From: Parasynechococcus marenigrum WH 8102
Lineage (GTDB): Bacteria; Cyanobacteriota; Cyanobacteriia; PCC-6307; Cyanobiaceae
Length of the DNA stretch: 32,000 nucleotides
Direction: 5' to 3'
Assembly (NCBI RefSeq): GCF_000195975.1
Contig: NC_005070.1
Location: 180,001 to 212,000, forward strand
Numbering within the stretch: position 1 is the stretch's first letter; every line of letters begins with the position of its first letter. Below, in pieces: positions 4,944 through 22,929 of this stretch. A program made the position numbers and the translations under genes. The notes under the pieces are model-generated. The model had not been told where the DNA came from. It did no database searches and saw nothing but the letters and a program-made list of their open reading frames with translations.

Positions 4944-4951
4944 GCCATAGC

Positions 4952-10011: not shown

Positions 10012-11980
10012 GGGTCTGCGCTGTGGTTTCTGTACAGGCCAGTAGCAAGGGACCGCAGGTCTGGGGATCCACCAGCAGCTCAAGCAGTGCCTGCGAGGGT
10101 GAGTCATCCAGTTGGATGAGCCCATCCAGCCATTGCCAGCTGCGGCGGTTGGCCGGCGCCAGGCTGCTGGCATAGCCCTGAGCCAATCGATCCATGGCTT
10201 CGGGGTATGCCGGAATGCGGTTGGTCCAAAGGGTGATCCGTAGGGGGGAGCTGCTCGCCAGCATTTCCCCGAGATGCCCGAGCAGACCGAAGCCGGTGAC
10301 ATCGGTGCAGGCGTGTATTGCCTGGCGATGGGGCTCCAGTTGATCCAGCAATCGGTGCTGACTGCGGGACATGTGCTGGAGCACGGTGTCCAAGGCCTCG
10401 GGTTGGCAGGCACCCGCCATGGCAGCAGCGAACAACACGCCGGTGCCCAGGGGACGGCTTAACAGCAGCACATCACCGTGGGCGATTCCCCCCTTGCTCC
10501 AGGGGGCAGCGCTGCGACCGTTGACGCAGAGGCTCAGCTGCACCCCCAGGCTGGGGCAGTGCGGCGGTTCACTGCGGGATTCCAGGGTGTGGCCTCCGAT
10601 CAGCTGCGCCTGCTGTTCCTCCAGCACTGATCGCACACCGCACAGCGTCTGCACCAGTAATTCCTGCTGTTCCGCCGCCTCCAGCACCGGCAGAGTCACG
10701 ATTGCCTGGGCGCTGTCGACCCTGACACCGCAGGCCCAGAGATCGGAGCAAGCATGGAGGGTGGTGAGTCGACCGTTCAGCCAGGGGTCGCTGACCAGCG
10801 CCGGGAACCCATCCACGCTCTGCAGCAGCGGCGGATCGCCCTCGATGCGTGCCGCATCTTCTGGTGCCCCGGTGAGCCCGGCCTGCTCCAGGGCGGCTGC
10901 AAGGGGCTGGGCCGGCAGCTTGGCTGCGCATCCCCGGCAGGCCATCGGTTCTGATGCAGTCATCGGCTCGCTGCTGCGGAACCCCGCCATGAAGCGTCTG
11001 TCGATCCGTCGCTTCCACTGCCAGAGCCATCCGGAGGGTCCCAGCTGCCAGCGTCCCCAGCGTGCCCAGGCCCGGCCTTGCTGATCGCCGATCAGCTGAA
11101 GCGCCTGTCGTTGCGGCCGCCAGGGACGCAGCGGGCGATCCAGGCAGCTGGCTTCCAGGTTCCATGCCAAGGGGATGGCTGCTCGCACAGCCCAGACGCC
11201 GGAGGCTGGCCTGGGTGCTGCAGCCATGACGGCGCAGTCACCGCTCGCAAAAATGTGCTCGTTGCCCTCCACCTGCAGCTGGGCATTGGTGCGGAGGCGA
11301 CCATCGCCATCCACCGGCAGACCGCTGGCTGCCAGCCAGATGGGTGCGCGACTGCCGGTGCAAAGCAGCCAGGGGCCACCCGTGGGCTCGGGGGTCGTGA
11401 CTAGGTCGATCAAGGCCTCCAACAGGATGCGCCGCTCAAGGGGACCTGGACCGTTTGAGCGGGTTTGCAGGCGCAACGGGCGGTGAGGCCAGCGGCGTCG
11501 CAGCGCCAGCACCACTTCCATGGCTGCGGCGCCAGCCCCGACCACGGTGAAGGGATTTGTGCTGTTGGGATCCTCGGAGGCGATGAAGGCCAGGGCCGGC
11601 TCCAGTGGCTTGATCGCGATGCCTTCAGCGCTTGGCCTGCTGATGGCACCGACATCGAGGCTGATCAGACCAAAACGCAAGGGTGGGCGTTCTGCGAGCA
11701 ACAGGCAGCGCTGGCCGGGGTCCAGGCCGGTGATCTCCGCCTGCACGAAGCCGACACCAGCTCGATCGCAGAGGGAGCGCAGATTGATGGCGGCTGCCTC
11801 AGGTGGGTCGATCCCGGCGATCAGGGCTGGAACCATGCCCGAGTAGAGCGCTGAACTGCAGCGATTGATCAGCAGTACAGGGCGGGCCGGCCGTCGGGTT
11901 GGGTCCATGGCCCAGCGCTTGAGGATCAGCGCGTGGCTGTGGCCTCCGCCGGCCAGAAGGAGCGGCCCGGCTGGATTCAT
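9956..11980 (-). CDS. selD: fusion protein: FAD/NAD(P)-dependent pyridine-nucleotide-disulfide oxidoreductase (NDH-2-like) fused to selenide,water dikinase (selenophosphate synthetase, Cys type)
   Basis: Preferred start is ATG 11980 (MNPAGPLLLAGGGHSHAL, Rossmann GxGxxH right at the N-terminus), which forms an ATGA overlap with the galE stop. The ORF track extends to 12037. Second dinucleotide motif FTVVGAGAAAME and ASGDCA. C-terminal half has SelD motifs CRGCAAKLP, DDAARIEG, TDVTGFGLLGHL. Confidence 0.85.
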   Translation of the reverse strand: MNPAGPLLLAGGGHSHALILKRWAMDPTRRPARPVLLINRCSSALYSGMVPALIAGIDPPEAAAINLRSLCDRAGVGFVQAEITGLDPGQRCLLLAERPPLRFGLISLDVGAISRPSAEGIAIKPLEPALAFIASEDPNSTNPFTVVGAGAAAMEVVLALRRRWPHRPLRLQTRSNGPGPLERRILLEALIDLVTTPEPTGGPWLLCTGSRAPIWLAASGLPVDGDGRLRTNAQLQVEGNEHIFASGDCAVMAAAPRPASGVWAVRAAIPLAWNLEASCLDRPLRPWRPQRQALQLIGDQQGRAWARWGRWQLGPSGWLWQWKRRIDRRFMAGFRSSEPMTASEPMACRGCAAKLPAQPLAAALEQAGLTGAPEDAARIEGDPPLLQSVDGFPALVSDPWLNGRLTTLHACSDLWACGVRVDSAQAIVTLPVLEAAEQQELLVQTLCGVRSVLEEQQAQLIGGHTLESRSEPPHCPSLGVQLSLCVNGRSAAPWSKGGIAHGDVLLLSRPLGTGVLFAAAMAGACQPEALDTVLQHMSRSQHRLLDQLEPHRQAIHACTDVTGFGLLGHLGEMLASSSPLRITLWTNRIPAYPEAMDRLAQGYASSLAPANRRSWQWLDGLIQLDDSPSQALLELLVDPQTCGPLLLACTETTAQTLTAEGPWIPIGNATADHG

Positions 11981-13011
11981 GGCGCTGATCGATAGCCCAT
12001 CGGGTTGGCCTGCTGCCAGGCCCAGCCATCGCGGCACATCTCCACCAGGCCGCGGCGGGCTGTCCAGCCCAACACGGCTTCCGCCTGGCGCGGACAGGCC
12101 TGCAGCCTCGGCACATCACCGGGACGGCGGGCAACCACCTCATAGGGAATGGTGATGCCGGTGGCCTGCTCGAACCCCTTGATCACATCGAGCACGCTCA
12201 GTCCCGTGCCCGTGCCGATGTTCACGGTCAGCTGGGTGGGCGGCTCCTGGTTGAGCAGGTGGGTGAGCGTGACGCCATGGGCTTCGGCTAGATCCATCAC
12301 ATGCAGATAGTCGCGGATGCCGGTGCCATCGGGTGTCGGGTAGTCCTGCCCGAACACCCGCAGCTTGTCCCTGCGTCCTGCAGCTACCTGGGTGATGAAG
12401 GGGAACAGGTTGTTGGGAATGCCAAGGGGGTCTTCCCCGATGCGGCCGCTGGGGTGGGCACCCACCGGGTTGAAGTAGCGCAGGCAGGCCACCCGCCAGC
12501 TGCCGGAGCGACAAAGCGCTCCCAGCATCTGCTCGACGGCCAGTTTGGTTTGGGCGTAGGGATGCACCGGCGCGGTGGCCATGCCCTCATGCAGGGGGAA
12601 CTGCTCCGGTTCGCCATACACCGTGGAGGTGCTGCTGAATACAAGGGTGCGGCAACCGTGGCGTTCCATGACCGCCGCCAGCACTCGGCTGCCGTTGAGG
12701 TTCACATCCCAGTAGCGCAGAGGGTCGGCCACTGATTCACCCACCGCTTTGAGCCCGGCGAAGTGAATCACGCCATCCACCGGCCTGCCCGAGCGGAAGG
12801 CTCGATCCAGCACATCAGGGTTGCGCAAATCCCCTTCCACCAGCTGAAGGGCATCGGACGCCGCCAGCTCCTGAACCCGGCGCAGGGCTTCCGGACTGCT
12901 GTTGTCGAAGTTGTCCACCACCACCAGGGAGTGGCCCTGCTCCAGCAGCACAAGGCAGGTGTGGCTGCCGATGAAACCAGCCCCTCCGGTGATCAGGATC
13001 CTGCACGTCAT
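11977..13011 (-). CDS. galE: UDP-glucose 4-epimerase
   Basis: ILITGGAGFIGSHTCLVLLEQGHSLVVVDNFDNSS, the SSTSTVYG/YAQTKL catalytic S...YxxxK, RYFNPVGAH and DYPTPDGTGIRDYLHVMDLA. Confidence 0.9.
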   Translation of the reverse strand: MTCRILITGGAGFIGSHTCLVLLEQGHSLVVVDNFDNSSPEALRRVQELAASDALQLVEGDLRNPDVLDRAFRSGRPVDGVIHFAGLKAVGESVADPLRYWDVNLNGSRVLAAVMERHGCRTLVFSSTSTVYGEPEQFPLHEGMATAPVHPYAQTKLAVEQMLGALCRSGSWRVACLRYFNPVGAHPSGRIGEDPLGIPNNLFPFITQVAAGRRDKLRVFGQDYPTPDGTGIRDYLHVMDLAEAHGVTLTHLLNQEPPTQLTVNIGTGTGLSVLDVIKGFEQATGITIPYEVVARRPGDVPRLQACPRQAEAVLGWTARRGLVEMCRDGWAWQQANPMGYRSAP

Positions 13012-13101: not shown

Positions 13102-13857
13102 GTGGACGGCGGAACGACGCTCCCCGAGCTAAGGCGAGCTATTGGAGCTGACGGTAGATCTCTTTTACGGCGCTACAACCTCCTCCAGCCGTTGGTGGAG
13201 CAGATGATCACCAGCGAAGCCATTTCTGGCATGTCGGTTCCTGAAGAAGCTCTCAACAGAGCCAAGCTCGAGCTCCTCGAGCAACGGGGCTTCGAAACAA
13301 TGGATCAGTGGCCCGAGATGCTCGCGGCTTTGGGTCGATCCAACGATGAGGTGATGGATCGGCTCGAACGGGTGATCCGTCGCCAGGGATACATTAGAGA
13401 GCAATTTGCTCCCAAGGCTGAAGCTCGTTTCCTCGAGCGCAAGAACGAGCTCGATCAAGTGGTGTACAGCCTGCTGCGGTTGTCCAACAATTTCCTGGCC
13501 CGTGAGTTGTATCTGCAAATCGAGTCTGGGGAATCCAACTTTGCGGACCTTGCCAAGCGCTATGCGGAGGGTCCTGAACGCAACACCAACGGCATCGTTG
13601 GGCCGGTCTCTTTGACCCAGGCCCATCCAGTCCTGGTTGAAAAGCTCCGAGTTGCGCAACCCGGGGTGCTGTTGGAGCCATTTCGCATTGCCGATTGGTG
13701 GCTGGTGGTGCGACTGGAGCGCTATTCCCCGGCCACATTCACGCCGGAGATCTCCGATCAAATGTGCCGGGAGATGTTCGATGCATGGATCGCCGAGGAA
13801 ACAGCCAGTACCTTGAGCCGGCTTGAAGCCGAATACAGCGACTTCAGCGTTTCCTGA
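13102..13857 (+). CDS. SurA-N/parvulin-like (PpiC-type rotamase fold) protein, no signal peptide, probably non-catalytic
   Basis: GTG start 13102 (start uncertain). C-terminal half shows the parvulin pattern NFADLAKRYAEGPERNTNGIVGPVS...PGVLLEPFRIADWWLVVRLE. Stop overlaps the ABC start (TGATG 13855-13859). Confidence 0.6.
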   Translation: MDGGTTLPELRRAIGADGRSLLRRYNLLQPLVEQMITSEAISGMSVPEEALNRAKLELLEQRGFETMDQWPEMLAALGRSNDEVMDRLERVIRRQGYIREQFAPKAEARFLERKNELDQVVYSLLRLSNNFLARELYLQIESGESNFADLAKRYAEGPERNTNGIVGPVSLTQAHPVLVEKLRVAQPGVLLEPFRIADWWLVVRLERYSPATFTPEISDQMCREMFDAWIAEETASTLSRLEAEYSDFSVS

Positions 13858-16775
13858 TGACCCAGTCCCCTCCCTTCCCCCTGCTGAAGCACCCTGCTTT
13901 CAAGGGCGTATCTGATGCTGCTTTGTTGCGGCTGCAGGACTCTTCGAGCCTGCTGCGGTTCGAACTGGGTCAGCAGCTGTGTGAGCCGGATGACATCCCG
14001 GCCAGGATCCTGGTTCTGCTCCAAGGTCAGGCACGTCTGGTGGGGCGTCACAACGGTCGCCTCACCACCGTTGGCAAGTTCGGCCCGGGCAGCTTGATCG
14101 GTGCCGCAAGCCTCCTGTGCGGTAGCCCGTGCGAAAACGTGATTGCATCGGATGAAGTGATCGCCTGTGCGATCTCCGATGAGCAGTGGACTCAGCTGTA
14201 CAGCGAGGAAGAATCCTTCCGCCAGTGGTGTGATCAGCAGTTGTGGCCCCAGGAGCTCCTCGCGCTGCTGGAGGTCCTTGAGGAGGGAACAGCGGAAACC
14301 GACAGCTCAGCTCTCGAGAAACTGGAGCAGGCTCTGAAGAGCGTCAAGCGTTGTCTGCCAGACGCGGAGGCGATTGACGCAGCTCTAGCGACGGGAGGTC
14401 GTCTTTATCTCACAAGTTGCTGGGGACACGCCTCCTTAGGGCAGTCGATCCAAGCGGTGTCTGACATTCCGGATTCGGATCGGTTCCGTCAACGCCTGGT
14501 GTTGTTTCCCGGTTTATCAGCGGACAGCGCTGAGAAGGAGCCGGGCGGCGATCTCGTGCCAGCGAATGCTGTGAAGAAGGCTGAACTGCTGCCTCCAGTC
14601 AGTCGTTACAGCCCTGAGCGCAATGTGGTGGACAGCCTGAGGCTGATCCGTGCTGAAGGCCCGATCCAGGAAACGCTGGCCTGCTTCCAGATGCTGGCCC
14701 AATTGATGAAGCTGCCGTTTCGGCGCGATTCAATTGAGAAAGTGCTGCAGGACAACCTGCGGCGTGGGCTGACGCCCAATCTTCAGCTCTGCGGCCAATT
14801 GGCGGCCAGCTTGGGTCTGCACGTCATGGCAGCCAAGGTGCCTTCCGTATCAGGCACCCGCCTCCAGGTTCCATCGATGCTTCCCTGGAAACAGGGTTTT
14901 GCTCTGGTGGTGGCCAGCAGCGAACAGGGCCTGAGGCTCGCTTCGCCGAAACACGGCATGGTCACGGTTGCTCCCGATCAATTAGCTGAAAGTTTCCCTG
15001 AGGGGATCGAGCTGCTTCTGATGGAGCGCTCCAATGCCACCCCTGATCAGAAGTTCGGTCCTGGCTGGTTCTGGCCTGCGCTCAAGCGCTACCGCGGGGT
15101 GCTGATTCAGGTGTTGGCCGCCAGTTTTGTGGTGCAGCTGTTCACCCTGGCCAACCCCCTGCTGATCCAGGTGATCATCGACAAGGTGATCAGCCAACGC
15201 AGTCTGGACACGTTGCAAGTGCTGGGCATTGCCCTGGTGATGGTGACCATCCTGGAAGGGGTGCTGGGCAGCCTAAAAACGTTCCTCTTCGCCGAAACCA
15301 CCAACCGCATTGATCAGCGCCTCGGTGCCGAAGTGATCGATCACCTGCTGCGTCTTCCCCTTGGCTATTTCGATCGCCGCCCGGTGGGTGAGCTCGGCAC
15401 CCGGGTGGCTGAGCTGGAAAAGATCCGCAACTTCCTCACGGGTCAGGCGCTCACCACGATCCTGGATGCCGCCTTCTCGGTGATCTACATCATGGTGATG
15501 GTGATCTACAGCTGGTTGCTGACCTTGATCGCCCTATCTGTGTTGCCGATTCAGATCGGTCTCACCGTGCTGGGAGCTCCGCTGTTCCGCCGGCAGTTCC
15601 GTGCTGCTGCTGAAGAAAATGCCAAAACCCAGAGCCATCTGGTTGAGGTTCTCACTGGTATTCAGACCGTTAAGGCTCAGAACGTGGAAATGGTCAGCCG
15701 TTGGCGCTGGCAAGAGTTCTACTCGCAATACATCGCTCGCACGTTTGAGAAGACGATTACCGGTACGGCTCTGAATCAAACCAGCCAGGTTCTGCAGAAG
15801 ATTTCGCAGCTGATGGTGCTGTGGATCGGAGCCTCGATGGTGTTGAGCGGTGACCTCACCCTGGGCCAGTTGATCGCCTTCCGGATCATTTCTGGCTACG
15901 TGACTCAGCCACTGCTGCGGTTGTCGACGATCTGGCAGAACATCCAGGAACTACGGGTGAGTTTCGAGCGTCTTGCTGACGTGATCGACACCCCGGAGGA
16001 ATCCGATGAGGTGGATAAGTCAAAGGTGATGTTGCCGCCGTTGCACGGGGAGGTGCGGTTCGAGGGTCTTTCCTTCCGGTTCCGACCTGGTCAACCTGAG
16101 GTGTTGAAGGACATCAACCTCGAGATCAAGGCCGGCACGTTCGTTGGAATCGTTGGCCAGAGCGGCAGTGGCAAGAGCACCCTGATGAAGCTCCTGCCGC
16201 GTCTTTATGAGCCGGGAGAAGGCAGGATTTTGATCGATGGCTACGACATCGCCAAGGTTGAGCTTTATTCACTGCGCCGACAGATTGGAATCGTTCCCCA
16301 GGACCCACTCCTGTTCAGCGGAACGGTGAGCGAGAACATTGCTCTCACCAATCCGGAAGCGTCCAGTGAGGAGATTGTTCGGGCAGCCCGCCTGGCCAAT
16401 GCCCACGACTTCATCATGGATCTGCCCAGTGGCTACAGCACTCCTGTGGGTGAACGGGGGGCTTCCCTCAGTGGCGGCCAACGTCAACGGGTGGCGATCG
16501 CGCGGACCTTGCTGAGCAATCCCAAGTTGCTGGTGATGGACGAAGCCACGAGCGCCCTTGATTACGAAACGGAGAGAAAGGTCTGCGACAACCTGCTCGA
16601 GAATCTGGATGACCAGACGGTGTTTTTCATTACGCACCGCCTGTCCACGATCCGTCAGGCCGATGTGATCGTGATGCTTCACCAAGGTGCCGTGGTCGAA
16701 GTCGGCACCCATGAGGACCTGATGAAGCATCGAGGTCGCTACTACGCCCTTTATCGCCAGCAGGAGAGCACCTGA
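13857..16775 (+). CDS. type I secretion ABC exporter (HlyB-like): cNMP-binding-like domain, unassigned linker, C39-like domain, 6-TM domain, NBD
   Basis: 972 aa. Walker A GQSGSGKST (about 16153-16179), Q-loop IVPQDPLLF, signature LSGGQRQR, Walker B LLVMDEATSALD, H-loop FITHRLS. ABC membrane domain runs from about residue 405 to 690. Confidence 0.9.
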   Translation: MTQSPPFPLLKHPAFKGVSDAALLRLQDSSSLLRFELGQQLCEPDDIPARILVLLQGQARLVGRHNGRLTTVGKFGPGSLIGAASLLCGSPCENVIASDEVIACAISDEQWTQLYSEEESFRQWCDQQLWPQELLALLEVLEEGTAETDSSALEKLEQALKSVKRCLPDAEAIDAALATGGRLYLTSCWGHASLGQSIQAVSDIPDSDRFRQRLVLFPGLSADSAEKEPGGDLVPANAVKKAELLPPVSRYSPERNVVDSLRLIRAEGPIQETLACFQMLAQLMKLPFRRDSIEKVLQDNLRRGLTPNLQLCGQLAASLGLHVMAAKVPSVSGTRLQVPSMLPWKQGFALVVASSEQGLRLASPKHGMVTVAPDQLAESFPEGIELLLMERSNATPDQKFGPGWFWPALKRYRGVLIQVLAASFVVQLFTLANPLLIQVIIDKVISQRSLDTLQVLGIALVMVTILEGVLGSLKTFLFAETTNRIDQRLGAEVIDHLLRLPLGYFDRRPVGELGTRVAELEKIRNFLTGQALTTILDAAFSVIYIMVMVIYSWLLTLIALSVLPIQIGLTVLGAPLFRRQFRAAAEENAKTQSHLVEVLTGIQTVKAQNVEMVSRWRWQEFYSQYIARTFEKTITGTALNQTSQVLQKISQLMVLWIGASMVLSGDLTLGQLIAFRIISGYVTQPLLRLSTIWQNIQELRVSFERLADVIDTPEESDEVDKSKVMLPPLHGEVRFEGLSFRFRPGQPEVLKDINLEIKAGTFVGIVGQSGSGKSTLMKLLPRLYEPGEGRILIDGYDIAKVELYSLRRQIGIVPQDPLLFSGTVSENIALTNPEASSEEIVRAARLANAHDFIMDLPSGYSTPVGERGASLSGGQRQRVAIARTLLSNPKLLVMDEATSALDYETERKVCDNLLENLDDQTVFFITHRLSTIRQADVIVMLHQGAVVEVGTHEDLMKHRGRYYALYRQQEST
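13896..14192 (+). other. cNMP-binding-like (CAP family) domain of the ABC exporter, non-canonical phosphate-binding cassette
   Basis: FKGVSDAALLRL..RFELGQQLCEPDDIPARILVLLQGQARLV...GPGSLIGAASLLCGSPCENVIAS..VIACAIS. Confidence 0.6.
14640..15032 (+). other. peptidase-C39-like domain (CLD) lacking the Cys/His/Asp catalytic residues
   Basis: IQETLACFQMLAQLMKLPF..LCGQLAASLGL..VPSMLPWKQGFALVVAS..LRLASPKHG aligned by eye to the C39 consensus. Confidence 0.6.
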
Positions 16776-16777
16776 CC

Positions 16778-17968
16778 ATGAAGCTCAATCCATTCCAGCG
16801 TCAGACGTCTCCTACGAACCAGGACAGCTCAGACCTCGTCAACTACGACGAATCGGTGCTGCAGCAGGGTCGGTTCTGGATGAAGACCGTCACCTGGACG
16901 ATGATCGGCACGACAGTATTTGGCGTGGCTTGGCTTGCCTTGGCTCGCACCGAGGAGATAGTCGTCGCCCCAGGTCAGCTTGAGCCTGTCGGTTCTGTGC
17001 AGGACATCCAGATGCCCGTGGGTGGTGTGGCGGACCAGATCCTGGTACAGGAAGGCGATGCCGTGAAGGCAGGGCAGGTGTTGATGAAATTGGACACCGA
17101 AGCCAGCGAAGAACAGCGCCTCAGCCTGGAGAAAACGATCAAGCTCAAACAGGAGCAGCTCCGGCTTAAGGCCGAGGAAAAGCAGCGCTATCTCCAGGTG
17201 AATAACGAGGAGGTGCAAATGCTTGAGAACAACCTCGCACTTCAAAGTGAGATTCTTGAGCGTTTTGAGGAATTGGAGGAGGCCGGTGCCACCTCCGAGC
17301 TGCAATATCTCAGCCAGCAGAACTCTGTTGAGGAAACCCGCGGTCGTCTGATGCAGACCAAGGCGGATCGTTTACGGCAGTTGGCGCTTCTCGATCAGCA
17401 GGTGGCACAGTTCAACACAGAAGTGGCCGACCTGCGCGGCCGCCTGGCTCAAGCAAGGGTCACCCTGCGCTACCAACAGCTGAAGTCTCCGGTGGATGGT
17501 GTGGTTTTCGATCTCAAGCCAACAGCCACGGGCTTCACCGCCCAGTCCACCCAGACGGTCATGAAGGTTGTTCCCTACGGCTCGCTGGAAGCGAAAGTGG
17601 AAGTACCGAGCAACAAGATCGGCTTCGTGACGGTTCCTCCCGGATGCCCCAAGGATCTGGAGAGTTGCATGAAAGCGGATATCAGCATCGATTCCTATCC
17701 ATCAACGGATTTTGGGGTTCTGGAGGGAAAGGTGACGCGCATCGGATCTGATGCTCTGCCACCCGATCCCCAGGAGCAGCGTCAGGAGCTCAGTTTCCCT
17801 GTCACTGTGAAGCTCGATCAGCAGAAGCTGCAGCTGAAAAGCGGTACAACGCTGCCACTGCAAGTCGGCATGAGCCTGACGGCCAACATCAAGTTGCGCA
17901 AGGTTTCTTACCTGCAACTGCTGCTGGGTGAGTTCCAGGACAAAGCCGAGTCGCTTCAGCGCCTCTGA
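16778..17968 (+). CDS. HlyD-family periplasmic adaptor (membrane fusion protein) of the type I secretion system
   Basis: N-terminal TM (TVTWTMIGTTVFGVAWLALA), lipoyl-like half-motifs (GVADQILVQEGDAVKAGQVLMKLD ... SPVDGVVFDL), long coiled-coil region, C-terminal beta-barrel. Starts 2 nt after the ABC stop. Confidence 0.9.
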   Translation: MKLNPFQRQTSPTNQDSSDLVNYDESVLQQGRFWMKTVTWTMIGTTVFGVAWLALARTEEIVVAPGQLEPVGSVQDIQMPVGGVADQILVQEGDAVKAGQVLMKLDTEASEEQRLSLEKTIKLKQEQLRLKAEEKQRYLQVNNEEVQMLENNLALQSEILERFEELEEAGATSELQYLSQQNSVEETRGRLMQTKADRLRQLALLDQQVAQFNTEVADLRGRLAQARVTLRYQQLKSPVDGVVFDLKPTATGFTAQSTQTVMKVVPYGSLEAKVEVPSNKIGFVTVPPGCPKDLESCMKADISIDSYPSTDFGVLEGKVTRIGSDALPPDPQEQRQELSFPVTVKLDQQKLQLKSGTTLPLQVGMSLTANIKLRKVSYLQLLLGEFQDKAESLQRL

Positions 17969-17973
17969 GCCAG

Positions 17974-19224
17974 ATGCGAATCCTGTTTGTTCATCAGAAC
18001 TTCCCGGGTCAATACGTTCACATCGTTCAGAGACTCGCTCAACAGGGCCAGCACCAGATCGTGGCCCTCGGCATCAATGCCTTGGATGCCAACCGACCTT
18101 TACCGGAAGAGTTGCAGTACTTCCGCTACCCCCTGGAACGGGGCAACACCAAGGGGATTCATCCTTTGGTGATGGAAACAGAAACGAAGATCATCAGGGC
18201 TGAGGGCTGTGCACGGGCGGCGGAACAACTGAAAGCCAAAGGATTCACGCCTGATCTCATCTGTGCTCATCCAGGCTGGGGTGAAGCCCTTTTCCTCAAA
18301 GCGATTTGGCCGGACTCACCGCTGCTTTGTTACGAGGAGTTTTTTTATCGAGCTCACGGGTTTGATTCCAATTTCGATCCCGAATTCGACCGGGATTGGT
18401 CCTGGCAGGAGCAGGCCCGCCTCAATATGAAAAATGCTTACTTGCATCTCACCCTGGAACAGGCGGACTGGCATGTGTCGCCCACCCATTTTCAGGCCAG
18501 CAGCTTTCCGGAGCATTGGCAGCGCCGCATCAGCGTGATCCATGACGGTGTCGACACCAGGCGCGCAGCACCGGTGGCCAATCCAAGGCCGCTGACTCTC
18601 CCGGATGGAACCGTTCTGGAGAAAGGTCAGTCGATCATCACCTTTGTGAATCGGAGTCTGGAGCCCTACCGGGGCTGCCATACCTTCCTGCGGGCGATCC
18701 CCGATCTTCAGCGCCAGTCACCGGATGCACGCATTGTGATCGTCGGTGAAACCAAGGGTGTCAGTTATGGGTCCCCCTGTCCCGACGGTGAGTGGAAGGA
18801 TCAATTCCTGGCTGAGATCGAGGGGCACTACGACCCGAGCGGGGTGCATTTTGCAGGGACACTGCCTTACGAGCAGTTCCTGCTGTTGCTGCAGTTGAGC
18901 GCCTGCCATGTGTATCTCACCTATCCGTTCGTCTTGAGCTGGAGCTTGCTTGAGGCGATGGCCTGTGGTTGTGCCGTTGTGGGTTCCGACACGGCTCCAG
19001 TTCGGGAGGTGATCCGCCACGGCATCAATGGTCTGCTGGTGGATTTCTTCTCTCCGGCCGATCTGGCATCAGCGGTGTCCGAGCTGTTGCGGGATCGCGA
19101 CCGGGCAGCATCTTTCGGAGCAGAGGCAAGACGCACGGTGGAACGCAGCTATGACCTTGACGTTTGTGTTCAACGTCAGCTGGCCCTGATCGATTTGGTG
19201 GCCAGCGGCAGTATTAACGCTTGA
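17974..19224 (+). CDS. GT4-family (GT-B, group 1) glycosyltransferase
   Basis: MRILFVHQNFPGQY N-terminus and the C-terminal GT4 pattern SWSLLEAMACGCAVVGSDTAPVREVIRHGINGLLVDF (E-x7-E type). Starts 5 nt after the HlyD stop. Confidence 0.8.
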   Translation: MRILFVHQNFPGQYVHIVQRLAQQGQHQIVALGINALDANRPLPEELQYFRYPLERGNTKGIHPLVMETETKIIRAEGCARAAEQLKAKGFTPDLICAHPGWGEALFLKAIWPDSPLLCYEEFFYRAHGFDSNFDPEFDRDWSWQEQARLNMKNAYLHLTLEQADWHVSPTHFQASSFPEHWQRRISVIHDGVDTRRAAPVANPRPLTLPDGTVLEKGQSIITFVNRSLEPYRGCHTFLRAIPDLQRQSPDARIVIVGETKGVSYGSPCPDGEWKDQFLAEIEGHYDPSGVHFAGTLPYEQFLLLLQLSACHVYLTYPFVLSWSLLEAMACGCAVVGSDTAPVREVIRHGINGLLVDFFSPADLASAVSELLRDRDRAASFGAEARRTVERSYDLDVCVQRQLALIDLVASGSINA

Positions 19225-19342
19225 ACGAAGTGGGGATAGAACTGTTTGAGAAGTTGGTTGTCGTCGAGACATTGATTTGAAATCTGGGCGACATCGCTTT
19301 GGCTTTGTCCTATCCAGAATTAACAAAGTCTGAAGAAAAATC

Positions 19343-21592
19343 GTGACTGCATCCTTTCGGCATGGTGTCGCCTCGGGTGATCCCTATCAGGATTCCTTTG
19401 TGATCTGGTCACGCGTGTCTGATGTGGATGGCTCGTCTGCATCTGTGAACTGGGAAGTCTCTTCAAGTCCGAAATTTAAAAAACGTACAATTTTGGATTC
19501 GGGAACGATTTCCACAAGTTCGGATCGAGATTGGACTGTCAAGGCACTTCCCGAGGGATTGCAGGCTGGTGAAGACTATTACTACCGCTTCGAAGTGGAT
19601 GGGGTGGTATCTCCTGTAGGTCACGCCAGTACGTTGCCTGATAAGGCTGCTTCAGTCCGTATGGCAGTTTTGTCATGCGCTAATTTTACAAATACGGAAT
19701 TTTTTGAGACCTATCGAAGAGTCGCGGAAATCGATGCTGAGCAGCCCTACGATATTATTTTACATGTTGGCGACTATATTTATGAATATGGTCAAGGCGG
19801 TTATCCGAGCGCAGAGTCTGCTGTTGAAAACCGTGGCTTTGAGCCCGATAGCGAGTTGCTGAGTCTTGACGATTATAGACAGCGTTATGCGCAGTACCAC
19901 AGTGATGCTGGTTTACGTGAAATGCATGCATCTGCTCCAATGGTCTCGATCTGGGACGACCACGAAACTGCTAATGACAGTTGGTTAGGAGGTGCTGAAA
20001 ATCACCAGTCTGAAGTCGAGGGTGATTGGGCCTCTCGTCGTGATGCTGCTCTGCAGGCTTACTACGAGTGGATGCCGATTCGAGAGCCTGCTTTGCGTCG
20101 GGATGTTGATTTGGGGACGGATGATTCGCCTCTGACTCAGGGTTTTCGCAGTTTTGACCTGGCTGATCTTGTTACTCTTTATGTACTTGAGACTAGGCTT
20201 ACGGCAAGGGATGAGCAGCTTGCTTATCCAAATTCTGACGCTGTCGCCGCTCGAATTGGGGACATACTCGCGGATCCACTGCTATTAGCTTCCTACGCCG
20301 AGTCTCTGGGTGTTGCTCCCCCCGTTTCAGCGGAGGACCTTGATGGCGTCAACGCTTTATCTGCAGCCTTGATCGATCCAGTGACCCTGGAGTTGGTTGC
20401 GGCGACTGTTGCCGATGGGTGGACGAATCCATCTCGAAATCTCCTTGGTCAAGACCAGCAGTCCTGGCTCCAGAGTGGCTTGGCCGGGTCTGATGCTGCT
20501 TGGCAGGTGCTTGGTCAGCAGGTCTTAATGCAGTCAATGGCTATACCAGCTGAGCTGCTGCTGAATGCCACGGATCCAGATGTTCTGGCGAAGTATTCGG
20601 CCCCCCTTGAAAAGTTGGCGACTGGACAGCCCCTGAATCAAGACGAGTTGGCTTTGTTTGATGAAGCTACTAAGATTCCATACAACCTTGATGCTTGGGA
20701 TGGCTACGGCGTTGAGAGAGAAACCATTCTTCAAACGGCAGCCGGTCTCGGTAAAAAGTTAGTTTCCCTTGCTGGTGATACACACAACGCATGGGTAGGT
20801 GTGCTGGACGCGATGAGTACAGGTGCGGCTATGCCTGGCCAAGTGGTCGGCATTGAATTTGCCACTCCAGGAGTTTCTGCTCCAGGAATAGAAACATACA
20901 TTGCCCCAGGTCTCGAGCCAATATTTTTAAGTTACACAGAAGGTTTAAAATATACAGACTTAAGTCGGAGGGGTTTCCTTGATATTACCTTTCACGAAGA
21001 ACACATCACTTCTAGCTATCAGCTTCTAGACCCTGACGAGGGTTGGATCGCCGATGTTTTGCAGTCAGATGATTCCTTCAGCCCACGCCAACTATCCCGG
21101 GTTGATGCCACGACAACTGCAGATATCCCAACCGGATTTGCCCACGGAAGGTTCAGAGAAGTCATCCGGGCTGGTGCTGGCAATGACCGCATCGCAGCTG
21201 GAGATCGCAAAGGTTATGTCTCCGCTGGAGGTGGTAACGATGACATCGACGGTGGCCGTCGCGCACAACTGCTCCTCGGTGATGAGGGTGATGATGTGAT
21301 TCGTGGTCGTGGTGGCCCTGACGAGCTCAGGGGTGGTCCCGGCGCAGACAGCCTGAATGGTGGTCCTGGTGATGATTTGATTCTTGGGGGCGCTGGTGCG
21401 GACAGTTTCCGCATCAGCAAAGGAGACGACCGCATCGTCGACCTTGATCCTCTTGAAGGAGACGTTCTGCTCTTGCCTGCAGGCCTCGAGCCAACGTTGA
21501 CTTCGGCTGTTTCTGGCGTCCTTCTCGCGACTGATCGTGGCACCACCCTGTTGGAGGGACTCACCCTGGAGCAGGTGGAGGGGCTGATCTGA
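19343..21592 (+). CDS. phoD: PhoD-family alkaline phosphatase/phosphodiesterase with C-terminal RTX repeats, no N-terminal signal peptide
   Basis: GTG 19343 is the only start after the in-frame stop at 19331-19333. FRHGVASGDP..VIWSRV (PhoD_N), VLSCANF, LHVGDYIYEYG, IWDDHETANDSW and LAGDTHNAWV (PhoD metallophosphatase motifs). RTX block at the C-terminus. Confidence 0.85.
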   Translation: MTASFRHGVASGDPYQDSFVIWSRVSDVDGSSASVNWEVSSSPKFKKRTILDSGTISTSSDRDWTVKALPEGLQAGEDYYYRFEVDGVVSPVGHASTLPDKAASVRMAVLSCANFTNTEFFETYRRVAEIDAEQPYDIILHVGDYIYEYGQGGYPSAESAVENRGFEPDSELLSLDDYRQRYAQYHSDAGLREMHASAPMVSIWDDHETANDSWLGGAENHQSEVEGDWASRRDAALQAYYEWMPIREPALRRDVDLGTDDSPLTQGFRSFDLADLVTLYVLETRLTARDEQLAYPNSDAVAARIGDILADPLLLASYAESLGVAPPVSAEDLDGVNALSAALIDPVTLELVAATVADGWTNPSRNLLGQDQQSWLQSGLAGSDAAWQVLGQQVLMQSMAIPAELLLNATDPDVLAKYSAPLEKLATGQPLNQDELALFDEATKIPYNLDAWDGYGVERETILQTAAGLGKKLVSLAGDTHNAWVGVLDAMSTGAAMPGQVVGIEFATPGVSAPGIETYIAPGLEPIFLSYTEGLKYTDLSRRGFLDITFHEEHITSSYQLLDPDEGWIADVLQSDDSFSPRQLSRVDATTTADIPTGFAHGRFREVIRAGAGNDRIAAGDRKGYVSAGGGNDDIDGGRRAQLLLGDEGDDVIRGRGGPDELRGGPGADSLNGGPGDDLILGGAGADSFRISKGDDRIVDLDPLEGDVLLLPAGLEPTLTSAVSGVLLATDRGTTLLEGLTLEQVEGLI
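21170..21412 (+). repeat. nine in-register RTX nonapeptide (GGxGxDxUx) Ca-binding repeats inside the phoD-like CDS
   Basis: AGAGNDRIA AGDRKGYVS AGGGNDDID GGRRAQLLL GDEGDDVIR GRGGPDELR GGPGADSLN GGPGDDLIL GGAGADSFR, followed by a non-repeat tail of about 59 aa. Confidence 0.85.
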
Positions 21593-21635: not shown

Positions 21636-22928
21636 GTGAGTCAGCTGCAGAGCCTCAGGGGCATGGTGGATCTGTTGCCGGAGACTCTGCAGTGCTGGCA
21701 GGCCGTCGAAGCAGTCGCCCGGGAGCATTTCCGCCGCTCCGGTTTCGGCGAGATCCGAACACCGTTGTTGGAAACCACCGATCTGTTCTGCCGTGGCATC
21801 GGCGAAGGCACCGATGTGGTGGGCAAGGAGATGTACAGCTTCACCGATCGCGGTGAGCGTGCCTGCACACTGCGGCCAGAGGGCACCGCGTCGGTGGTGC
21901 GGGCGGCGCTGCAACACGGCCTGTTGAGCCAGGGCGCCCAGAAGCTTTGGTACGCCGGCCCGATGTTCCGCTATGAGCGGCCACAGGCCGGTCGCCAGCG
22001 TCAGTTTCATCAGATCGGTGTGGAGTGGTTGGGGGCGGAGAGCGCCCGCAGCGATGTGGAAGTGATCGCTCTGGCCTGGGATCTGCTGGCTCAGTTGGGC
22101 GTTGGTGGCCTCGAGCTGGAAATCAACAGTCTTGGTACGCCTGAGGATCGGCAGGCCTACCGCACAGCGCTGGTGGCCTGGCTGGAGCAGCGGCTGGATC
22201 AACTGGATGACGACTCCCGCGCCCGACTCAGCACCAATCCCCTGCGCATTCTCGATTCCAAAAACAAGGACACCCAGGCCTTGCTCGAGCAGGCACCCAC
22301 CCTGGCCGATGCCCTCAGCTCAGAGAGCCGGCAACGCTTTGATGCGGTTCAGCAGGGGCTGACCGCCCTGGGCATTCCCTTCCGGCTCAATCCGCGGCTG
22401 GTGCGGGGTCTGGATTATTACGGCCACACCGCCTTCGAGATCACCAGTGATCAACTGGGGGCGCAGGCCACCGTCTGCGGTGGTGGGCGGTACAACGGTT
22501 TGATCGCTCAACTGGGTGGAGCCCCCACGCCGGCCATCGGCTGGGCCTTGGGTATGGAAAGGCTGTTGCTGGTGCTGGAGGCGGCGGCGACGGCCGATCC
22601 GGATGGGGCAGCGGCGCGGCTGGTGGCCACGTCCGCACCTGATGCCTATGTGATCAACCGTGGTGACCAGGCGGAAACCATGGCGCTGACCCTCACGCGC
22701 GGTCTGCGGGCTGCTGGTCTGGCCGTGGAGCTGGATGGGTCGGGCTCCGCCTTCGGCAAGCAGTTCAAGCGGGCGGATCGTTGCGGTGCCCGTTGGGCTC
22801 TGGTGCTGGGCGATGACGAAGCAGCCCGGGCTGAGGTGCGGCTCAAGCCACTGCAGCACGAGGGCGAGGACCGGTCCTGGGCAGTTGCGGACATTGCCGC
22901 GATCGTGGAGACGCTGCGCACCCCTTGA
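21636..22928 (+). CDS. hisS: histidine--tRNA ligase
   Basis: GTG start. [31 protein letters not shown]...[28 protein letters not shown] (motif 2) and GGGRYNGL (motif 3). Confidence 0.95.
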
Positions 22929-22929
22929 G

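What the first reader, a model, noticed from the sequence alone, without database searches (positions are those of the whole stretch)
13102..19224. Translationally coupled export cassette: cytoplasmic parvulin-like protein, CNB/C39-like ABC exporter, HlyD adaptor and GT4 glycosyltransferase
Seen: four same-strand genes have essentially no intergenic space, so this is one operon. The junctions are TGATG at 13855-13859, a 2-nt gap at 16776-16777 and a 5-nt gap at 17969-17973. The first product has no hydrophobic N-terminal signal, so it should stay in the cytoplasm. Established: ABC plus HlyD is the inner-membrane core of a type I secretion system. Classical T1SS use neither a dedicated cytoplasmic chaperone nor a glycosyltransferase, and they need a TolC-like channel, which this window does not encode. 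Inference: this is a combined secretion and glycosylation module for large RTX or S-layer-type surface proteins. The parvulin-like protein may hold cargo export-competent, and the GT4 may modify cargo or an associated glycan. From memory, and unverified for this sequence: in Synechococcus WH8102 an ABC/HlyD/glycosyltransferase cluster beside a putative alkaline phosphatase was hit in transposon screens. Those mutants lost non-flagellar swimming and correct SwmA S-layer glycoprotein localisation. To my knowledge the roles of the accessory proteins and N-terminal domains have not been described.
Basis: partly seen in the sequence, partly recalled or inferred. Interest (0 to 1): 0.75.

Follow-up and report, generated by a model that had tools for sequence, protein, structure and literature searches.

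The report
Cyanobacterial protein exporter with built-in chaperone
This is the known SYNW0192-0196 locus of marine Synechococcus WH8102: a type I protein-secretion pump whose gene is fused stop-to-start, across cyanobacteria, with a cytoplasmic SurA/PrsA-like chaperone gene, followed here by a glycosyltransferase and a secreted phosphatase cargo.

Summary
In detail: the four ORFs, the three junctions and all domain calls hold. Exact protein matches show the window is Synechococcus WH8102, genes SYNW0192-0196.

Three things were missed:
- The next gene (19343-21592) is a PhoD phosphatase with no signal peptide and C-terminal RTX repeats. It is a ready-made cargo and has been detected in the WH8102 exoproteome.
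- The parvulin/ABC/HlyD triad was already catalogued in 2011 as the cyanobacterial "group I bacteriocin cluster".
- GT4 and the cargo are variable add-ons. Only the triad is conserved (76 of 80 loci).

My tests argue against the bacteriocin label:
- The C39 domain lacks the catalytic Cys and His in 73 of 73 homologs.
- The ABC protein scores as HlyB-type.
- RTX genes sit beside the triad in several genomes.

ORF1 models confidently (pLDDT 96) as a full SurA/PrsA-type chaperone, yet it is cytoplasmic. Its stop codon overlaps the ABC start in 64 of 74 loci.

Best reading: an RTX-protein type I secretion system with a dedicated cytoplasmic chaperone. The chaperone role is inferred, not shown, and the GT4 target remains open. 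This is a new variant of a known kind, of moderate interest.

The parts
13102..13857 (+). SYNW0192: cytoplasmic SurA/PrsA-like protein, 251 aa. N-terminal helical domain at aa 6-112, parvulin core at aa 119-209, long C-terminal helix at aa 215-250.
   Evidence: Exact match to CAE06707.1. Rotamase PF00639 at E 5.4e-7 and a weak TIGR04500 match. AF2 model with pLDDT 96 and pTM 0.85. Foldseek top hits are full-length PrsA, SurA, PEB4 and HP0175. No signal peptide or TM segment. Canonical parvulin catalytic positions are Leu, Gly and Trp.
13855..13859 (+). TGATG stop/start overlap that couples ORF1 to the ABC gene.
   Evidence: Read directly from the sequence. The same overlap (ATGA or TGATG) occurs in 64 of 74 cyanobacterial loci.
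13857..16775 (+). SYNW0193: HlyB-type T1SS ABC permease/ATPase, 972 aa, with three extra N-terminal modules.
   Evidence: TIGR01846 at 731.6 bits, above the 725.55 cut-off. Best PDB match is HlyB 7sgr at E 6.9e-166. NP_896288 = SYNW0193 was detected in the cell proteome.
13878..14240 (+). CNB-like (CAP_ED) beta-barrel domain, aa ~8-128, with a non-canonical phosphate-binding cassette.
   Evidence: PF00027 at 36.8 bits. AF2 pLDDT of 86-92 and Foldseek hits to CRP and PKA-R. The PBC reads GE->GA and RSA->CEN, with 'PCE' conserved family-wide.
14247..14507 (+). Small folded alpha/beta middle domain of unknown family, aa ~131-217, followed by a disordered linker at aa 220-250.
   Evidence: AF2 pLDDT of 78-89, dropping below 50 at aa 220-250. 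Poorly conserved outside marine Synechococcus.
14619..15032 (+). C39-like domain (CLD), aa ~255-392, protease-dead.
   Evidence: Family profile against PCAT1 C39 (7n87_A) gives E 5.4e-4, with the catalytic Cys aligned to Glu and the His to Ser/Gly. Among 73 homologs, none has the Cys and none has the His. A 31%-identical relative hits Pfam Peptidase_C39.
15111..16553 (+). Transmembrane domain (aa 419-686) and nucleotide-binding domain (aa 750-899).
   Evidence: ABC_membrane at 184 bits and ABC_tran at 120 bits. Hydrophobic segments at aa 413-577.
16778..17968 (+). SYNW0194: HlyD-family membrane fusion protein, 396 aa, with a cytoplasmic N-terminus and a membrane anchor at aa ~35-56.
   Evidence: Exact match to CAE06709.1. 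HlyD_3 at 57.4 bits. TIGR01843 at 148 bits, below its 208.65 cut-off. N-terminal hydrophobic stretch.
17974..19224 (+). SYNW0195: cytoplasmic GT4 (GT-B) glycosyltransferase, 416 aa.
   Evidence: Exact match to CAE06710.1. PF12000 at 191 bits and PF00534 at 94 bits. No TM segment or signal peptide. The nearest solved relative is only PimA at E 2.6e-9. It follows HlyD directly in 15 loci and follows an RTX gene in 5 loci.
19225..19342 (+). 118-nt spacer before the cargo gene, with a weak Pho-box-like triple repeat at 19298-19327.
   Evidence: Sequence read. The repeat scores 16/24, tied for best in the window but still weak. No terminator or promoter stands above shuffle expectation.
19343..21592 (+). 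SYNW0196: PhoD-family phosphatase fused to C-terminal RTX repeats, 749 aa, a T1SS-type cargo. It is a low-GC insertion specific to clade III.
   Evidence: Exact match to CAE06711.1. PhoD_N and PhoD at 288 bits, plus HemolysinCabind x3. No Tat or Sec signal. GC of 0.50-0.52 against 0.57-0.67 around it. Absent from all 80 related loci, where GT4 abuts hisS. Present four accessions after the ORF1 ortholog in A18-46.1 and A18-40. Peptides were found in the exoproteome.
21158..21589 (+). RTX block (aa 606-712, with five consecutive nonapeptides at aa 646-690) and an acidic C-terminal tail, the presumed uncleaved secretion signal.

Best explanation
The cassette is the inner-membrane part of a type I secretion system for unprocessed, RTX-type proteins, with a dedicated cytoplasmic chaperone.

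Shown here:
- SYNW0193 is a HlyB-class ABC exporter. Its C39-like domain cannot cleave leader peptides.
- SYNW0194 is its HlyD adaptor.
- SYNW0192 has the whole SurA/PrsA chaperone architecture but no export signal. Its gene is locked stop-to-start onto the ABC gene across cyanobacteria.
- SYNW0196 is a phosphatase that has swapped the usual N-terminal Tat leader for a C-terminal RTX signal, and it is found outside WH8102 cells.

Inferred:
- SYNW0192 binds newly made cargo in the low-calcium cytoplasm and keeps it unfolded.
- It then hands the cargo to the N-terminal CNB-like and C39-like modules of the pump, and the cargo passes through HlyD and a TolC encoded elsewhere.
- The SurA-like gene occurs only with ABC genes that carry the extra CNB-like domain, so that domain is the likely docking or gating site.
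- GT4, a cytoplasmic enzyme, either glycosylates cargo before export (SwmA is a glycoprotein) or builds a surface glycan that receives it.
- The slot downstream of HlyD is variable. Cyanobium-type genomes hold an RTX gene plus GT4 there, most marine Synechococcus hold GT4 alone, and clade III holds GT4 plus an acquired PhoD-RTX gene.
For: - T1SS identity: TIGR01846 above its cut-off and HlyB 7sgr at E 6.9e-166.
- Dead protease: 0 of 73 homologs have the catalytic Cys or His, confirmed by a tool-derived alignment to PCAT1.
- Cargo adjacency: HemolysinCabind RTX genes lie directly after HlyD in 7 of 55 loci, plus one more at a contig end, and between HlyD and GT4 in all 5 loci where those two are separated.
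- PhoD-RTX has no Tat or Sec leader, and its peptides were found in the exoproteome.
- Chaperone: AF2 pLDDT of 96; top folds are PrsA, SurA and PEB4; no signal peptide; the family spans 1,388 clusters at 50% identity.
- Linkage: the triad occurs in 76 of 80 loci, with the stop/start overlap in 64 of 74. Reverse checks from distant CNB-C39 ABC genes also find a Rotamase gene upstream.
- 'SurA' is reported only in cluster groups whose ABC has CAP_ED (PMC3140520).
- Group I clusters average only 0.35 bacteriocin precursors each.
- From memory, with the primary papers not held: transposon hits in SYNW0193-0195 abolish swimming and disturb SwmA production or localisation (McCarren & Brahamsha 2005, 2009). 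A secondary citation appears in PMC4293000.
Against: - No experiment or model here shows SYNW0192 touching either cargo or pump.
- RTX domains are usually thought to stay unfolded without help, and classical T1SS need no dedicated chaperone (PMC8277102).
- The parvulin groove is strongly conserved (Y122, G167, P168, H175, P176), so a non-canonical enzymatic role is not excluded.
- GT4 is absent from 35 of 55 loci. In this window it sits among sugar-nucleotide and polysaccharide genes.
- In L002 its slot is taken by sulfotransferase and GT2 genes.
- WH8102 has three such triads, so which one exports PhoD-RTX is unknown.
- HlyD scores below the NCBIfam T1SS cut-off (148 against 208.65 bits).
Confidence: 0.6

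Rival explanations
1. GT4 has nothing to do with the exported proteins. It belongs to the surrounding surface-polysaccharide gene region and builds an LPS, capsule or EPS glycan. Its tight junction with HlyD reflects only shared transcription in an envelope gene neighbourhood.
For: - The flanks encode three epimerases/dehydratases, a UDP-glucose dehydrogenase, sulfotransferases, a GT8-like protein, a cytidylyltransferase and a KpsF-like protein.
- GT4 is missing from 35 of 55 triad loci.
- In L002 the slot holds sulfotransferase and GT2 genes instead.
- The nearest solved relatives are lipid and small-molecule GT4 enzymes such as PimA.
Against: - GT4 follows HlyD at an 8-15 nt gap in 15 species-level genomes.
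- Wherever it is separated from HlyD, an RTX gene lies between them (5 of 5 loci).
- SwmA and oscillin are RTX glycoproteins (PMC3034196).
- From memory, glycosyltransferase mutants of WH8102 mislocalise SwmA.
Confidence: 0.4
2. SYNW0192 is not a cargo holdase. It is a subunit or regulator of the pump that binds the degenerate CNB-like domain, either to gate or assemble the transporter or to couple it to a cellular signal.
For: - The 'SurA' gene co-occurs strictly with the CAP_ED-bearing long-type ABC.
- The stop/start overlap implies fixed stoichiometry with the ABC protein.
- The CNB cassette has lost its cNMP contacts but keeps an invariant 'PCE' signature, as expected for a protein-contact or novel-ligand site.
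Against: - The whole SurA/PrsA fold, including the N+C chaperone module used by those proteins to bind unfolded clients, is retained.
- The two roles are not exclusive.
Confidence: 0.25
3. SYNW0192 is a true prolyl isomerase with a non-canonical active site, needed because these RTX repeats contain proline (GGPGxD).
For: - Strongly conserved groove residues.
- Three of the five tandem RTX repeats in SYNW0196 contain Pro.
- From memory, the parvulin histidines are not strictly essential for catalysis.
Against:
- Isomerisation in the cytoplasm would be pointless for a cargo that folds only outside the cell.
Confidence: 0.1
4. The triad is what the literature calls it: a group I bacteriocin cluster that cleaves and exports double-glycine leader peptides, with the rotamase acting as a peptide-maturation enzyme.
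For: - The published classification (PMC3140520, PMC4558948).
- A weak match of ORF1 to TIGR04500, 'peptide maturation system protein' (32 bits against a cut-off of 180).
- Pfam Peptidase_C39 hit in a distant relative.
Against: - The catalytic Cys, His, Gln and Asp are all replaced in 73 of 73 homologs.
- The ABC protein passes the HlyB model but not the bacteriocin or NHLP models.
- No room exists for precursor genes: the spacers are 90, 118 and 43 nt.
- The original survey itself found only 0.35 precursors per group I cluster.
- RTX genes are adjacent in several genomes.
Confidence: 0.05

Closest known systems
E. coli HlyB-HlyD-TolC haemolysin type I secretion system
   Same: HlyB-class ABC (E 6.9e-166 to 7sgr; TIGR01846 above its cut-off) with an inactive C39-like domain, a HlyD adaptor, TolC encoded elsewhere, and cargo with C-terminal RTX repeats and no N-terminal signal.
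   Different: The ABC protein carries about 255 extra N-terminal residues (a CNB-like barrel and a small middle domain). The CLD has also lost the His that HlyB keeps. A SurA/PrsA-like gene is translationally coupled upstream. There is no acyltransferase. A GT4 gene follows.
Cyanobacterial 'group I bacteriocin gene clusters' (Wang, Fewer & Sivonen 2011, PMC3140520)
   Same: Identical gene content: SurA/rotamase, long-type CAP_ED + C39 ABC, and HlyD. WH 8102 is listed with three such clusters, so this locus is almost certainly one of them.
   Different: That label assumes an active C39 protease acting on double-glycine precursors. Here the catalytic residues are absent in all 73 homologs tested, no precursor gene is present, and RTX proteins are the neighbours.
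SurA / PrsA / PEB4 family of parvulin-containing chaperones
   Same: Same three-part architecture: an N-terminal helical domain, an inserted parvulin domain and a C-terminal helix packing back (Foldseek probability 1.00, E down to 9e-10).
   Different: All characterised members work outside the cytoplasm (periplasm or lipoprotein-anchored). This one has no signal peptide, lacks the canonical catalytic residues, and is tied to an ABC exporter gene.
SecB-dependent HasA secretion (Serratia HasDEF T1SS)
   Same: A precedent for a cytoplasmic anti-folding chaperone being required for type I secretion (PMC8277102).
   Different: SecB is a general chaperone of unrelated fold, encoded elsewhere. HasD has no N-terminal domain and HasA has no RTX repeats.
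Accessory Sec (SecA2/SecY2-Asp-GtfA/B) export of serine-rich glycoproteins in Gram-positives
   Same: The same logic of a dedicated exporter, dedicated cytoplasmic chaperones and a GT4 enzyme that glycosylates cargo before export. This comparison is from memory and is an analogy only.
   Different: The translocon is unrelated (Sec against ABC/T1SS). Cargo glycosylation by SYNW0195 has not been shown.
Tat-exported PhoD alkaline phosphatase (Bacillus subtilis type)
   Same: PhoD_N and PhoD catalytic domains (288 bits).
   Different: There is no twin-arginine leader. A C-terminal RTX block and tail take its place, implying export unfolded through a T1SS and calcium-driven folding outside. It scores 237 bits against the equivalog cut-off of 1000.

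Membership tests
Type I secretion system, CLD-containing HlyB class | ABC half-transporter (TMD + NBD) that scores as the HlyB subfamily | tested here: met
   TIGR01846 at 731.6 bits against a cut-off of 725.55. HlyB 7sgr at E 6.9e-166.
Type I secretion system, CLD-containing HlyB class | N-terminal C39-like domain lacking the catalytic cysteine | tested here: met
   The Cys position is Glu in the window, and E/V/A/S in 73 of 73 homologs. The His is also absent.
Type I secretion system, CLD-containing HlyB class | Adjacent HlyD-family membrane fusion protein with an N-terminal anchor | tested here: met
   HlyD_3 at 57.4 bits, above its 22.2 cut-off. Hydrophobic stretch at aa ~35-56. Caveat: TIGR01843 scores 148 bits, below its 208.65 cut-off.
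Type I secretion system, CLD-containing HlyB class | TolC-like outer-membrane channel in the organism | not testable with these tools
   None lies in the 32-kb window. The rest of the genome could not be searched. TolC is encoded away from the operon in E. coli too.
Type I secretion system, CLD-containing HlyB class | Cargo with C-terminal RTX repeats and signal, no N-terminal signal, found outside the cell | tested here: met
   SYNW0196 has HemolysinCabind x3 and five tandem nonapeptides, with no Tat or Sec leader. Its peptides were found in the exoproteome. Its dependence on this particular pump was not tested.
PCAT / group I bacteriocin gene cluster | Gene content: rotamase/'SurA' + CAP_ED-C39 ABC + HlyD | tested here: met
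PCAT / group I bacteriocin gene cluster | Catalytically competent C39 peptidase (Gln/Cys/His/Asp) | tested here: not met
   All four positions are replaced in 73 of 73 homologs. The alignment to PCAT1 agrees.
PCAT / group I bacteriocin gene cluster | Double-glycine leader precursor gene(s) in the cluster | tested here: not met
   The only spacers are 90, 118 and 43 nt. The flanking genes are an epimerase and PhoD-RTX/hisS. No dedicated scan for a GG motif was run beyond this.
SurA/PrsA-like parvulin chaperones | Parvulin domain inserted between N- and C-terminal segments that form a helical chaperone module | tested here: met
   AF2 pLDDT of 96. Full-length matches to PrsA, SurA, PEB4 and HP0175.
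SurA/PrsA-like parvulin chaperones | Extracytoplasmic location (signal peptide or lipobox) | tested here: not met
   No hydrophobic N-terminus in the window protein or in aligned family members.
SurA/PrsA-like parvulin chaperones | Canonical parvulin catalytic residues (Pin1 H59, C113, H157) | tested here: not met
   They align to Leu, Gly and Trp.
SurA/PrsA-like parvulin chaperones | Binds unfolded client proteins | not testable with these tools
Cyclic-nucleotide-binding (CNB/CAP_ED) domains | Eight-stranded beta-barrel fold | tested here: met
   PF00027 at 36.8 bits. AF2 model plus CRP and PKA-R fold hits.
Cyclic-nucleotide-binding (CNB/CAP_ED) domains | Phosphate-binding cassette Glu and Arg that contact cAMP/cGMP | tested here: not met
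   GE->GA and R[ST]A->CEN in the window; 'G[AL]...PCE' family-wide.
PhoD alkaline phosphatase | PhoD_N + PhoD metallophosphatase domains | tested here: met
   92 and 288 bits.
PhoD alkaline phosphatase | Twin-arginine (Tat) signal peptide | tested here: not met
   The protein starts at the PhoD_N domain and has no RR motif.
GT4 glycosyltransferases | GT-B fold with GT4 N-terminal and Glycos_transf_1 C-terminal domains | tested here: met
   PF12000 at 191 bits and PF00534 at 94 bits.
GT4 glycosyltransferases | Acceptor identity (protein or glycan) | not testable with these tools
   There is no close characterised relative; the best PDB match is PimA at E 2.6e-9.

The most novel reading that the evidence does not exclude
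Cyanobacteria possess a phylum-wide class of type I secretion system with its own dedicated cytoplasmic chaperone. That chaperone is a SurA/PrsA-fold protein relocated to the cytoplasm. It docks on a degenerate CNB-like domain of the ABC pump and delivers unfolded RTX cargo. On this reading, the roughly 57 'group I bacteriocin clusters' catalogued in cyanobacterial genomes are misannotated protein exporters rather than peptide-antibiotic machinery.
Probability: 0.35. Interest if true: 0.7.

Novelty: new variant of a known kind. Interest (0 to 1): 0.5.

Why it matters
- **T1SS mechanism.** Type I secretion is usually taught as a three-part machine that needs no dedicated chaperone. A conserved, translationally coupled SurA/PrsA-like partner and a repurposed CNB domain would add a cargo-handling step that can be tested directly in a genetically tractable strain.
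- **Annotation.** The result suggests that the most widespread 'bacteriocin' cluster type in cyanobacteria, still propagated by genome-mining pipelines, cannot process leader peptides and is more likely a protein exporter. That changes natural-product counts and points to the route used by S-layer, motility and nutrient-scavenging exoproteins.
- **Ecology.** It shows how an open-ocean Synechococcus clade acquired an extracellular phosphatase: a PhoD gene with an RTX export tag inserted next to an existing pump.

Tried and rejected
**Led nowhere**
- Locus retrieval with the diverse ORF1 alignments A1 and A2 failed because no conserved stretch was found. A 6-sequence alignment worked.
- The primary WH8102 motility papers are not held. 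Their content is cited from memory plus a secondary citation.
- A single-sequence search of the ABC N-terminus against PDB found only CNB hits and missed the CLD. A family profile resolved this.
- The homolog search with the ABC N-terminus returned mostly fragments.
- The promoter and terminator scan gave nothing above shuffle expectation.
- The Pho-box scan gave only a weak 16/24 site.
- A supplement search for the C-terminal peptide of SYNW0196 found nothing.

**Considered and rejected**
- *A bacteriocin/PCAT exporter.* The protease is dead and there are no precursor genes.
- *PhoD-RTX as the ancestral or sole cargo.* It is absent from all 80 related loci, has low GC and is specific to clade III.
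- *A motility-specific system.* The ORF1 ortholog is present in A15-28, which lacks swmA and swmB, and the triad is phylum-wide.
- *A canonical cAMP-regulated pump.* The phosphate-binding cassette residues are missing.
- *ORF1 as a periplasmic SurA.* It has no signal peptide.


Full report
**1. Checking the observation**

The four + strand ORFs lie exactly where stated: 13102-13857, 13857-16775, 16778-17968 and 17974-19224. The junctions read TGATG at 13855-13859, a 2-nt gap and a 5-nt gap. Pfam and NCBIfam confirm every domain call.

- ORF1 matches a PpiC-type rotamase domain at E 5.4e-7.
- The 972-aa protein has a cNMP-binding domain at aa 34-117, then ABC_membrane and ABC_tran. It passes the curated HlyB-type T1SS model (731.6 bits against 725.55) over aa 274-970.
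- The third protein is HlyD-family.
- The fourth is GT4 (PF12000 plus PF00534).
- ORF1 has no hydrophobic segment at all.
- No TolC-like gene lies in the 32 kb.

**2. Where the window comes from**

Exact-sequence look-up shows the window is Synechococcus (Parasynechococcus marenigrum) WH8102. ORF1 is CAE06707.1, HlyD is CAE06709.1, GT4 is CAE06710.1, and the next gene is CAE06711.1. A proteomics table lists NP_896288 as SYNW0193. The genes are therefore SYNW0192 to SYNW0196.

**3.

The gene at 19343-21592 encodes a 749-aa protein with PhoD_N and PhoD phosphatase domains (288 bits) and three HemolysinCabind RTX hits at the C-terminus.

- It starts directly with the catalytic domain and has no twin-arginine or Sec leader.
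- It has five consecutive RTX nonapeptides at aa 646-690 and an acidic tail. That is the signature of a type I secretion substrate.
- The published WH8102 exoproteome lists NP_896291.1, 'putative alkaline phosphatase', as an exoprotein (PMC4949707).
- Its supplement gives a sequence beginning MTASFRHGVASGDPYQ, identical to the window protein, with peptides from residues 165-603 detected in the medium.

So a signal-less, RTX-tagged cargo lies 118 nt downstream of the cassette and is known to leave the cell.

**4. Synteny**

Using an alignment of ORF1 relatives I fetched 80 loci from species-representative genomes, nearly all of them cyanobacteria. I mapped the window's proteins onto them.

*The triad.* The order SurA-like gene, CNB/C39-like ABC gene, HlyD gene holds in 76 of 80 loci. 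It extends out to Oscillatoria, Okeania, Crocosphaera and Microcoleaceae at 33-37% identity. The stop of the first gene overlaps the start of the ABC gene in 64 of 74 evaluable loci (ATGA 52 times, TGATG 10 times). Starting instead from distant CNB-C39 ABC proteins, the upstream gene is again a Rotamase gene.

*What follows HlyD varies.* Among 55 loci with enough sequence:

| Downstream of HlyD | Loci |
|---|---|
| GT4 directly (8-15 nt gap), all marine Synechococcus | 15 |
| RTX gene, then GT4 | 5 |
| RTX gene only | 2 |
| Neither | 33 |

The sandwiched proteins are HemolysinCabind RTX proteins of 417-612 aa. L029 has an extra glycosyltransferase, and L002 replaces GT4 with sulfotransferase and GT2 genes.

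*The PhoD-RTX gene is a recent insertion.*
- It is absent from all 80 loci. In the nearest relatives GT4 abuts hisS.
- It occurs in clade III strains A18-46.1 and A18-40, exactly four accession numbers after the ORF1 ortholog, and is truncated in RS9915.
- Its GC content is 0.50-0.52, against 0.57-0.67 around it.

It is therefore a clade-specific insertion of a cargo gene beside an older pump.

**5. The ABC protein's N-terminus**

An AlphaFold model of residues 1-405 (pLDDT 78) shows three folded modules: a CNB beta-barrel (aa ~8-128), a small alpha/beta domain of unknown type (aa ~131-217), and a C39-like domain (aa ~255-392). A disordered linker precedes the last. Fold search confirms the CNB barrel.

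*The cNMP contacts are gone.* CRP's GE...RSA corresponds to GA...CEN here, and the family shows a conserved G[AL]...PCE.

*The C39-like domain is protease-dead.*
- A profile of the family hits the PCAT1 C39 domain at E 5.4e-4. PCAT1's D-C-G-A-A-C aligns to e-e-t-l-A-C, so the catalytic Cys position is Glu. The catalytic His aligns to Ser or Gly.
- Across 73 homologs, none has the Cys (63 Glu, 5 Val, 3 Ala, 2 Ser) and none has the His. The oxyanion Gln and the Asp are also replaced.

This is a protease-dead CLD, as in HlyB, where Tyr9 replaces the Cys (PMC8277102).

**6. ORF1**

The family is large: 1,388 clusters at 50% identity at E<=1e-3, typically about 245 aa and homologous end to end.

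- AlphaFold gives a very confident model (pLDDT 96, pTM 0.85) with a helical N-domain, a parvulin core and a long C-terminal helix.
- The best structural matches are full-length PrsA, SurA, PEB4/Cj1289 and HP0175, at probability 1.00. All of these are extracytoplasmic chaperones.
- ORF1 and its relatives lack any signal peptide.
- Other groove residues are invariant or nearly so: Y122, G167, P168, H175, P176.

I read it as a cytoplasmic SurA/PrsA-type binding module with a conserved but non-canonical groove.

**7. What the literature already knows**

*The triad has been described.* Wang, Fewer and Sivonen (2011) defined 'group I bacteriocin gene clusters' as SurA (rotamase) + long-type ABC (CAP_ED + C39) + HlyD (PMC3140520).
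- They counted 57 clusters, in all but one of the genomes surveyed, with three in WH 8102.
- They found only 0.35 precursor genes per group I cluster, against more than 3 in groups II-V.
- They found SurA only in groups I, II and VI, which are exactly the groups whose ABC carries CAP_ED. Micallef et al. (2015) repeat this.
- That work assumed an active C39 domain. My residue tests contradict that assumption for this family.

*T1SS chaperones.* A comprehensive T1SS review mentions only SecB, for HasA, as a secretion chaperone. The part of it that is held says nothing about CNB domains.

*Motility.* From memory, with the primary papers not held: transposon insertions in SYNW0193-0195 abolish swimming and disturb SwmA production or localisation (McCarren and Brahamsha 2005, 2009). 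A secondary source confirms that glycosyltransferase disruptions gave non-swimming mutants. SwmA is an RTX glycoprotein of the S-layer. Strain A15-28 lacks swmA and swmB yet has the ORF1 ortholog at 88% identity. The system is therefore not motility-specific.

**8. Mechanism**

*Shown:*
- A HlyB-class pump with a dead CLD and a HlyD adaptor.
- A phylum-wide, translationally coupled SurA/PrsA-fold cytoplasmic partner.
- RTX genes recurrently adjacent.
- A signal-less RTX phosphatase that is secreted.

*Inferred:*
- SYNW0192 holds nascent cargo unfolded and passes it to the N-terminal modules of SYNW0193. The CNB-like domain is the likely docking or gating site, because the two parts always co-occur.
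- Export proceeds through HlyD and a TolC encoded elsewhere.
- Calcium-driven folding occurs outside the cell.

*Open:* whether GT4 glycosylates cargo in the cytoplasm or builds a surface glycan. The RTX-GT4 sandwiches and the tight junction favour a link to cargo. The flanking polysaccharide genes, the absence of GT4 from most triads and its replacement in L002 favour the glycan reading.

Regulatory scans were uninformative. A Pho-box-like site upstream of SYNW0196 is weak (16/24).

**9. Verdict**

The locus is an already studied one, and its gene triad was already catalogued. What is new here:
- evidence that the 'bacteriocin' label is wrong for this family;
- the recognition that the accessory protein is a complete SurA/PrsA-type chaperone working in the cytoplasm;
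- the degenerate state of both N-terminal domains;
- the picture of a conserved core with a variable slot for cargo and glycosylation genes, filled in clade III by an acquired PhoD-RTX gene.

This is a new variant of a known kind, of moderate interest, with clear experiments available in a tractable strain.

Noticed in passing
window 9956-12037 (-): A 693-aa ORF combines a pyridine-nucleotide-disulphide oxidoreductase segment with AIRS/AIRS_C domains, giving a selenophosphate-synthetase-like fusion. A 675-709 aa ORF with a similar N-terminus occupies the same position upstream of the epimerase in L002, L004 and L011.
   Followed up: no
window 2550-7363 and 22735-26302: The cassette is embedded in surface-polysaccharide genes: two sulfotransferases, a GT8-like protein, a CMP-sugar cytidylyltransferase, a KpsF-like SIS+CBS protein, three epimerases/dehydratases and a UDP-glucose dehydrogenase. 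This suggests a sulfated glycan pathway. In L002 a sulfotransferase and a 1002-aa GT2-sulfotransferase fusion replace GT4 after HlyD.
   Followed up: partly
L055, L056, L057, L066: A paralogous SurA-like gene (43-47% identity) is not next to any ABC or HlyD gene. In L055 it lies after a HAMP histidine kinase and before a transglutaminase-like gene and an NDH-2-type oxidoreductase. The family is therefore not exclusively tied to T1SS.
   Followed up: partly
window 13857-15071 (ABC aa 92, 276, 312): Three cysteines are invariant across N-terminal homologs. One is in the 'PCE' motif that replaces the cNMP-binding Arg. One is in 'LACF', the i+4 position of the C39 motif. One is in 'LCG' of the CLD. 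A redox or metal-binding role is conceivable.
   Followed up: no
window 14247-14507 (ABC aa ~131-217): A confidently folded small alpha/beta domain lies between the CNB barrel and the CLD. It matches no family and is barely conserved outside marine Synechococcus.
   Followed up: partly
L033, L050, L056: Contigs carrying a picocyanobacterial-type cassette are filed under MAGs named Klebsiella, Mesorhizobium and Pseudanabaena. They are probably mis-binned contigs.
   Followed up: no
proteins P0168, P0193, P0208, P0231, P0265 (ORF1 relatives): Some family members are 460-710 aa long and match the query in two stretches. These are tandem duplications or fusions of the SurA-like unit.
   Followed up: no
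L075 13778-17608; L079 13824-17058: In filamentous cyanobacteria the HlyD homolog is much longer (527-651 aa). It is followed by a 549-598 aa ORF with no Pfam match, possibly another lineage-specific component or cargo.
   Followed up: no
window 8584-10011 (+) and 5592-6692 (+): Long ORFs with no Pfam match lie in a very GC-rich stretch and overlap other candidate ORFs. It is unclear which of them are real genes.
   Followed up: no
fold search of the ABC N-terminus: Among the CNB fold matches are trypanosome PKA regulatory subunits that bind nucleosides instead of cAMP. They are a precedent for CNB barrels with altered cassettes binding other small ligands.
   Followed up: no
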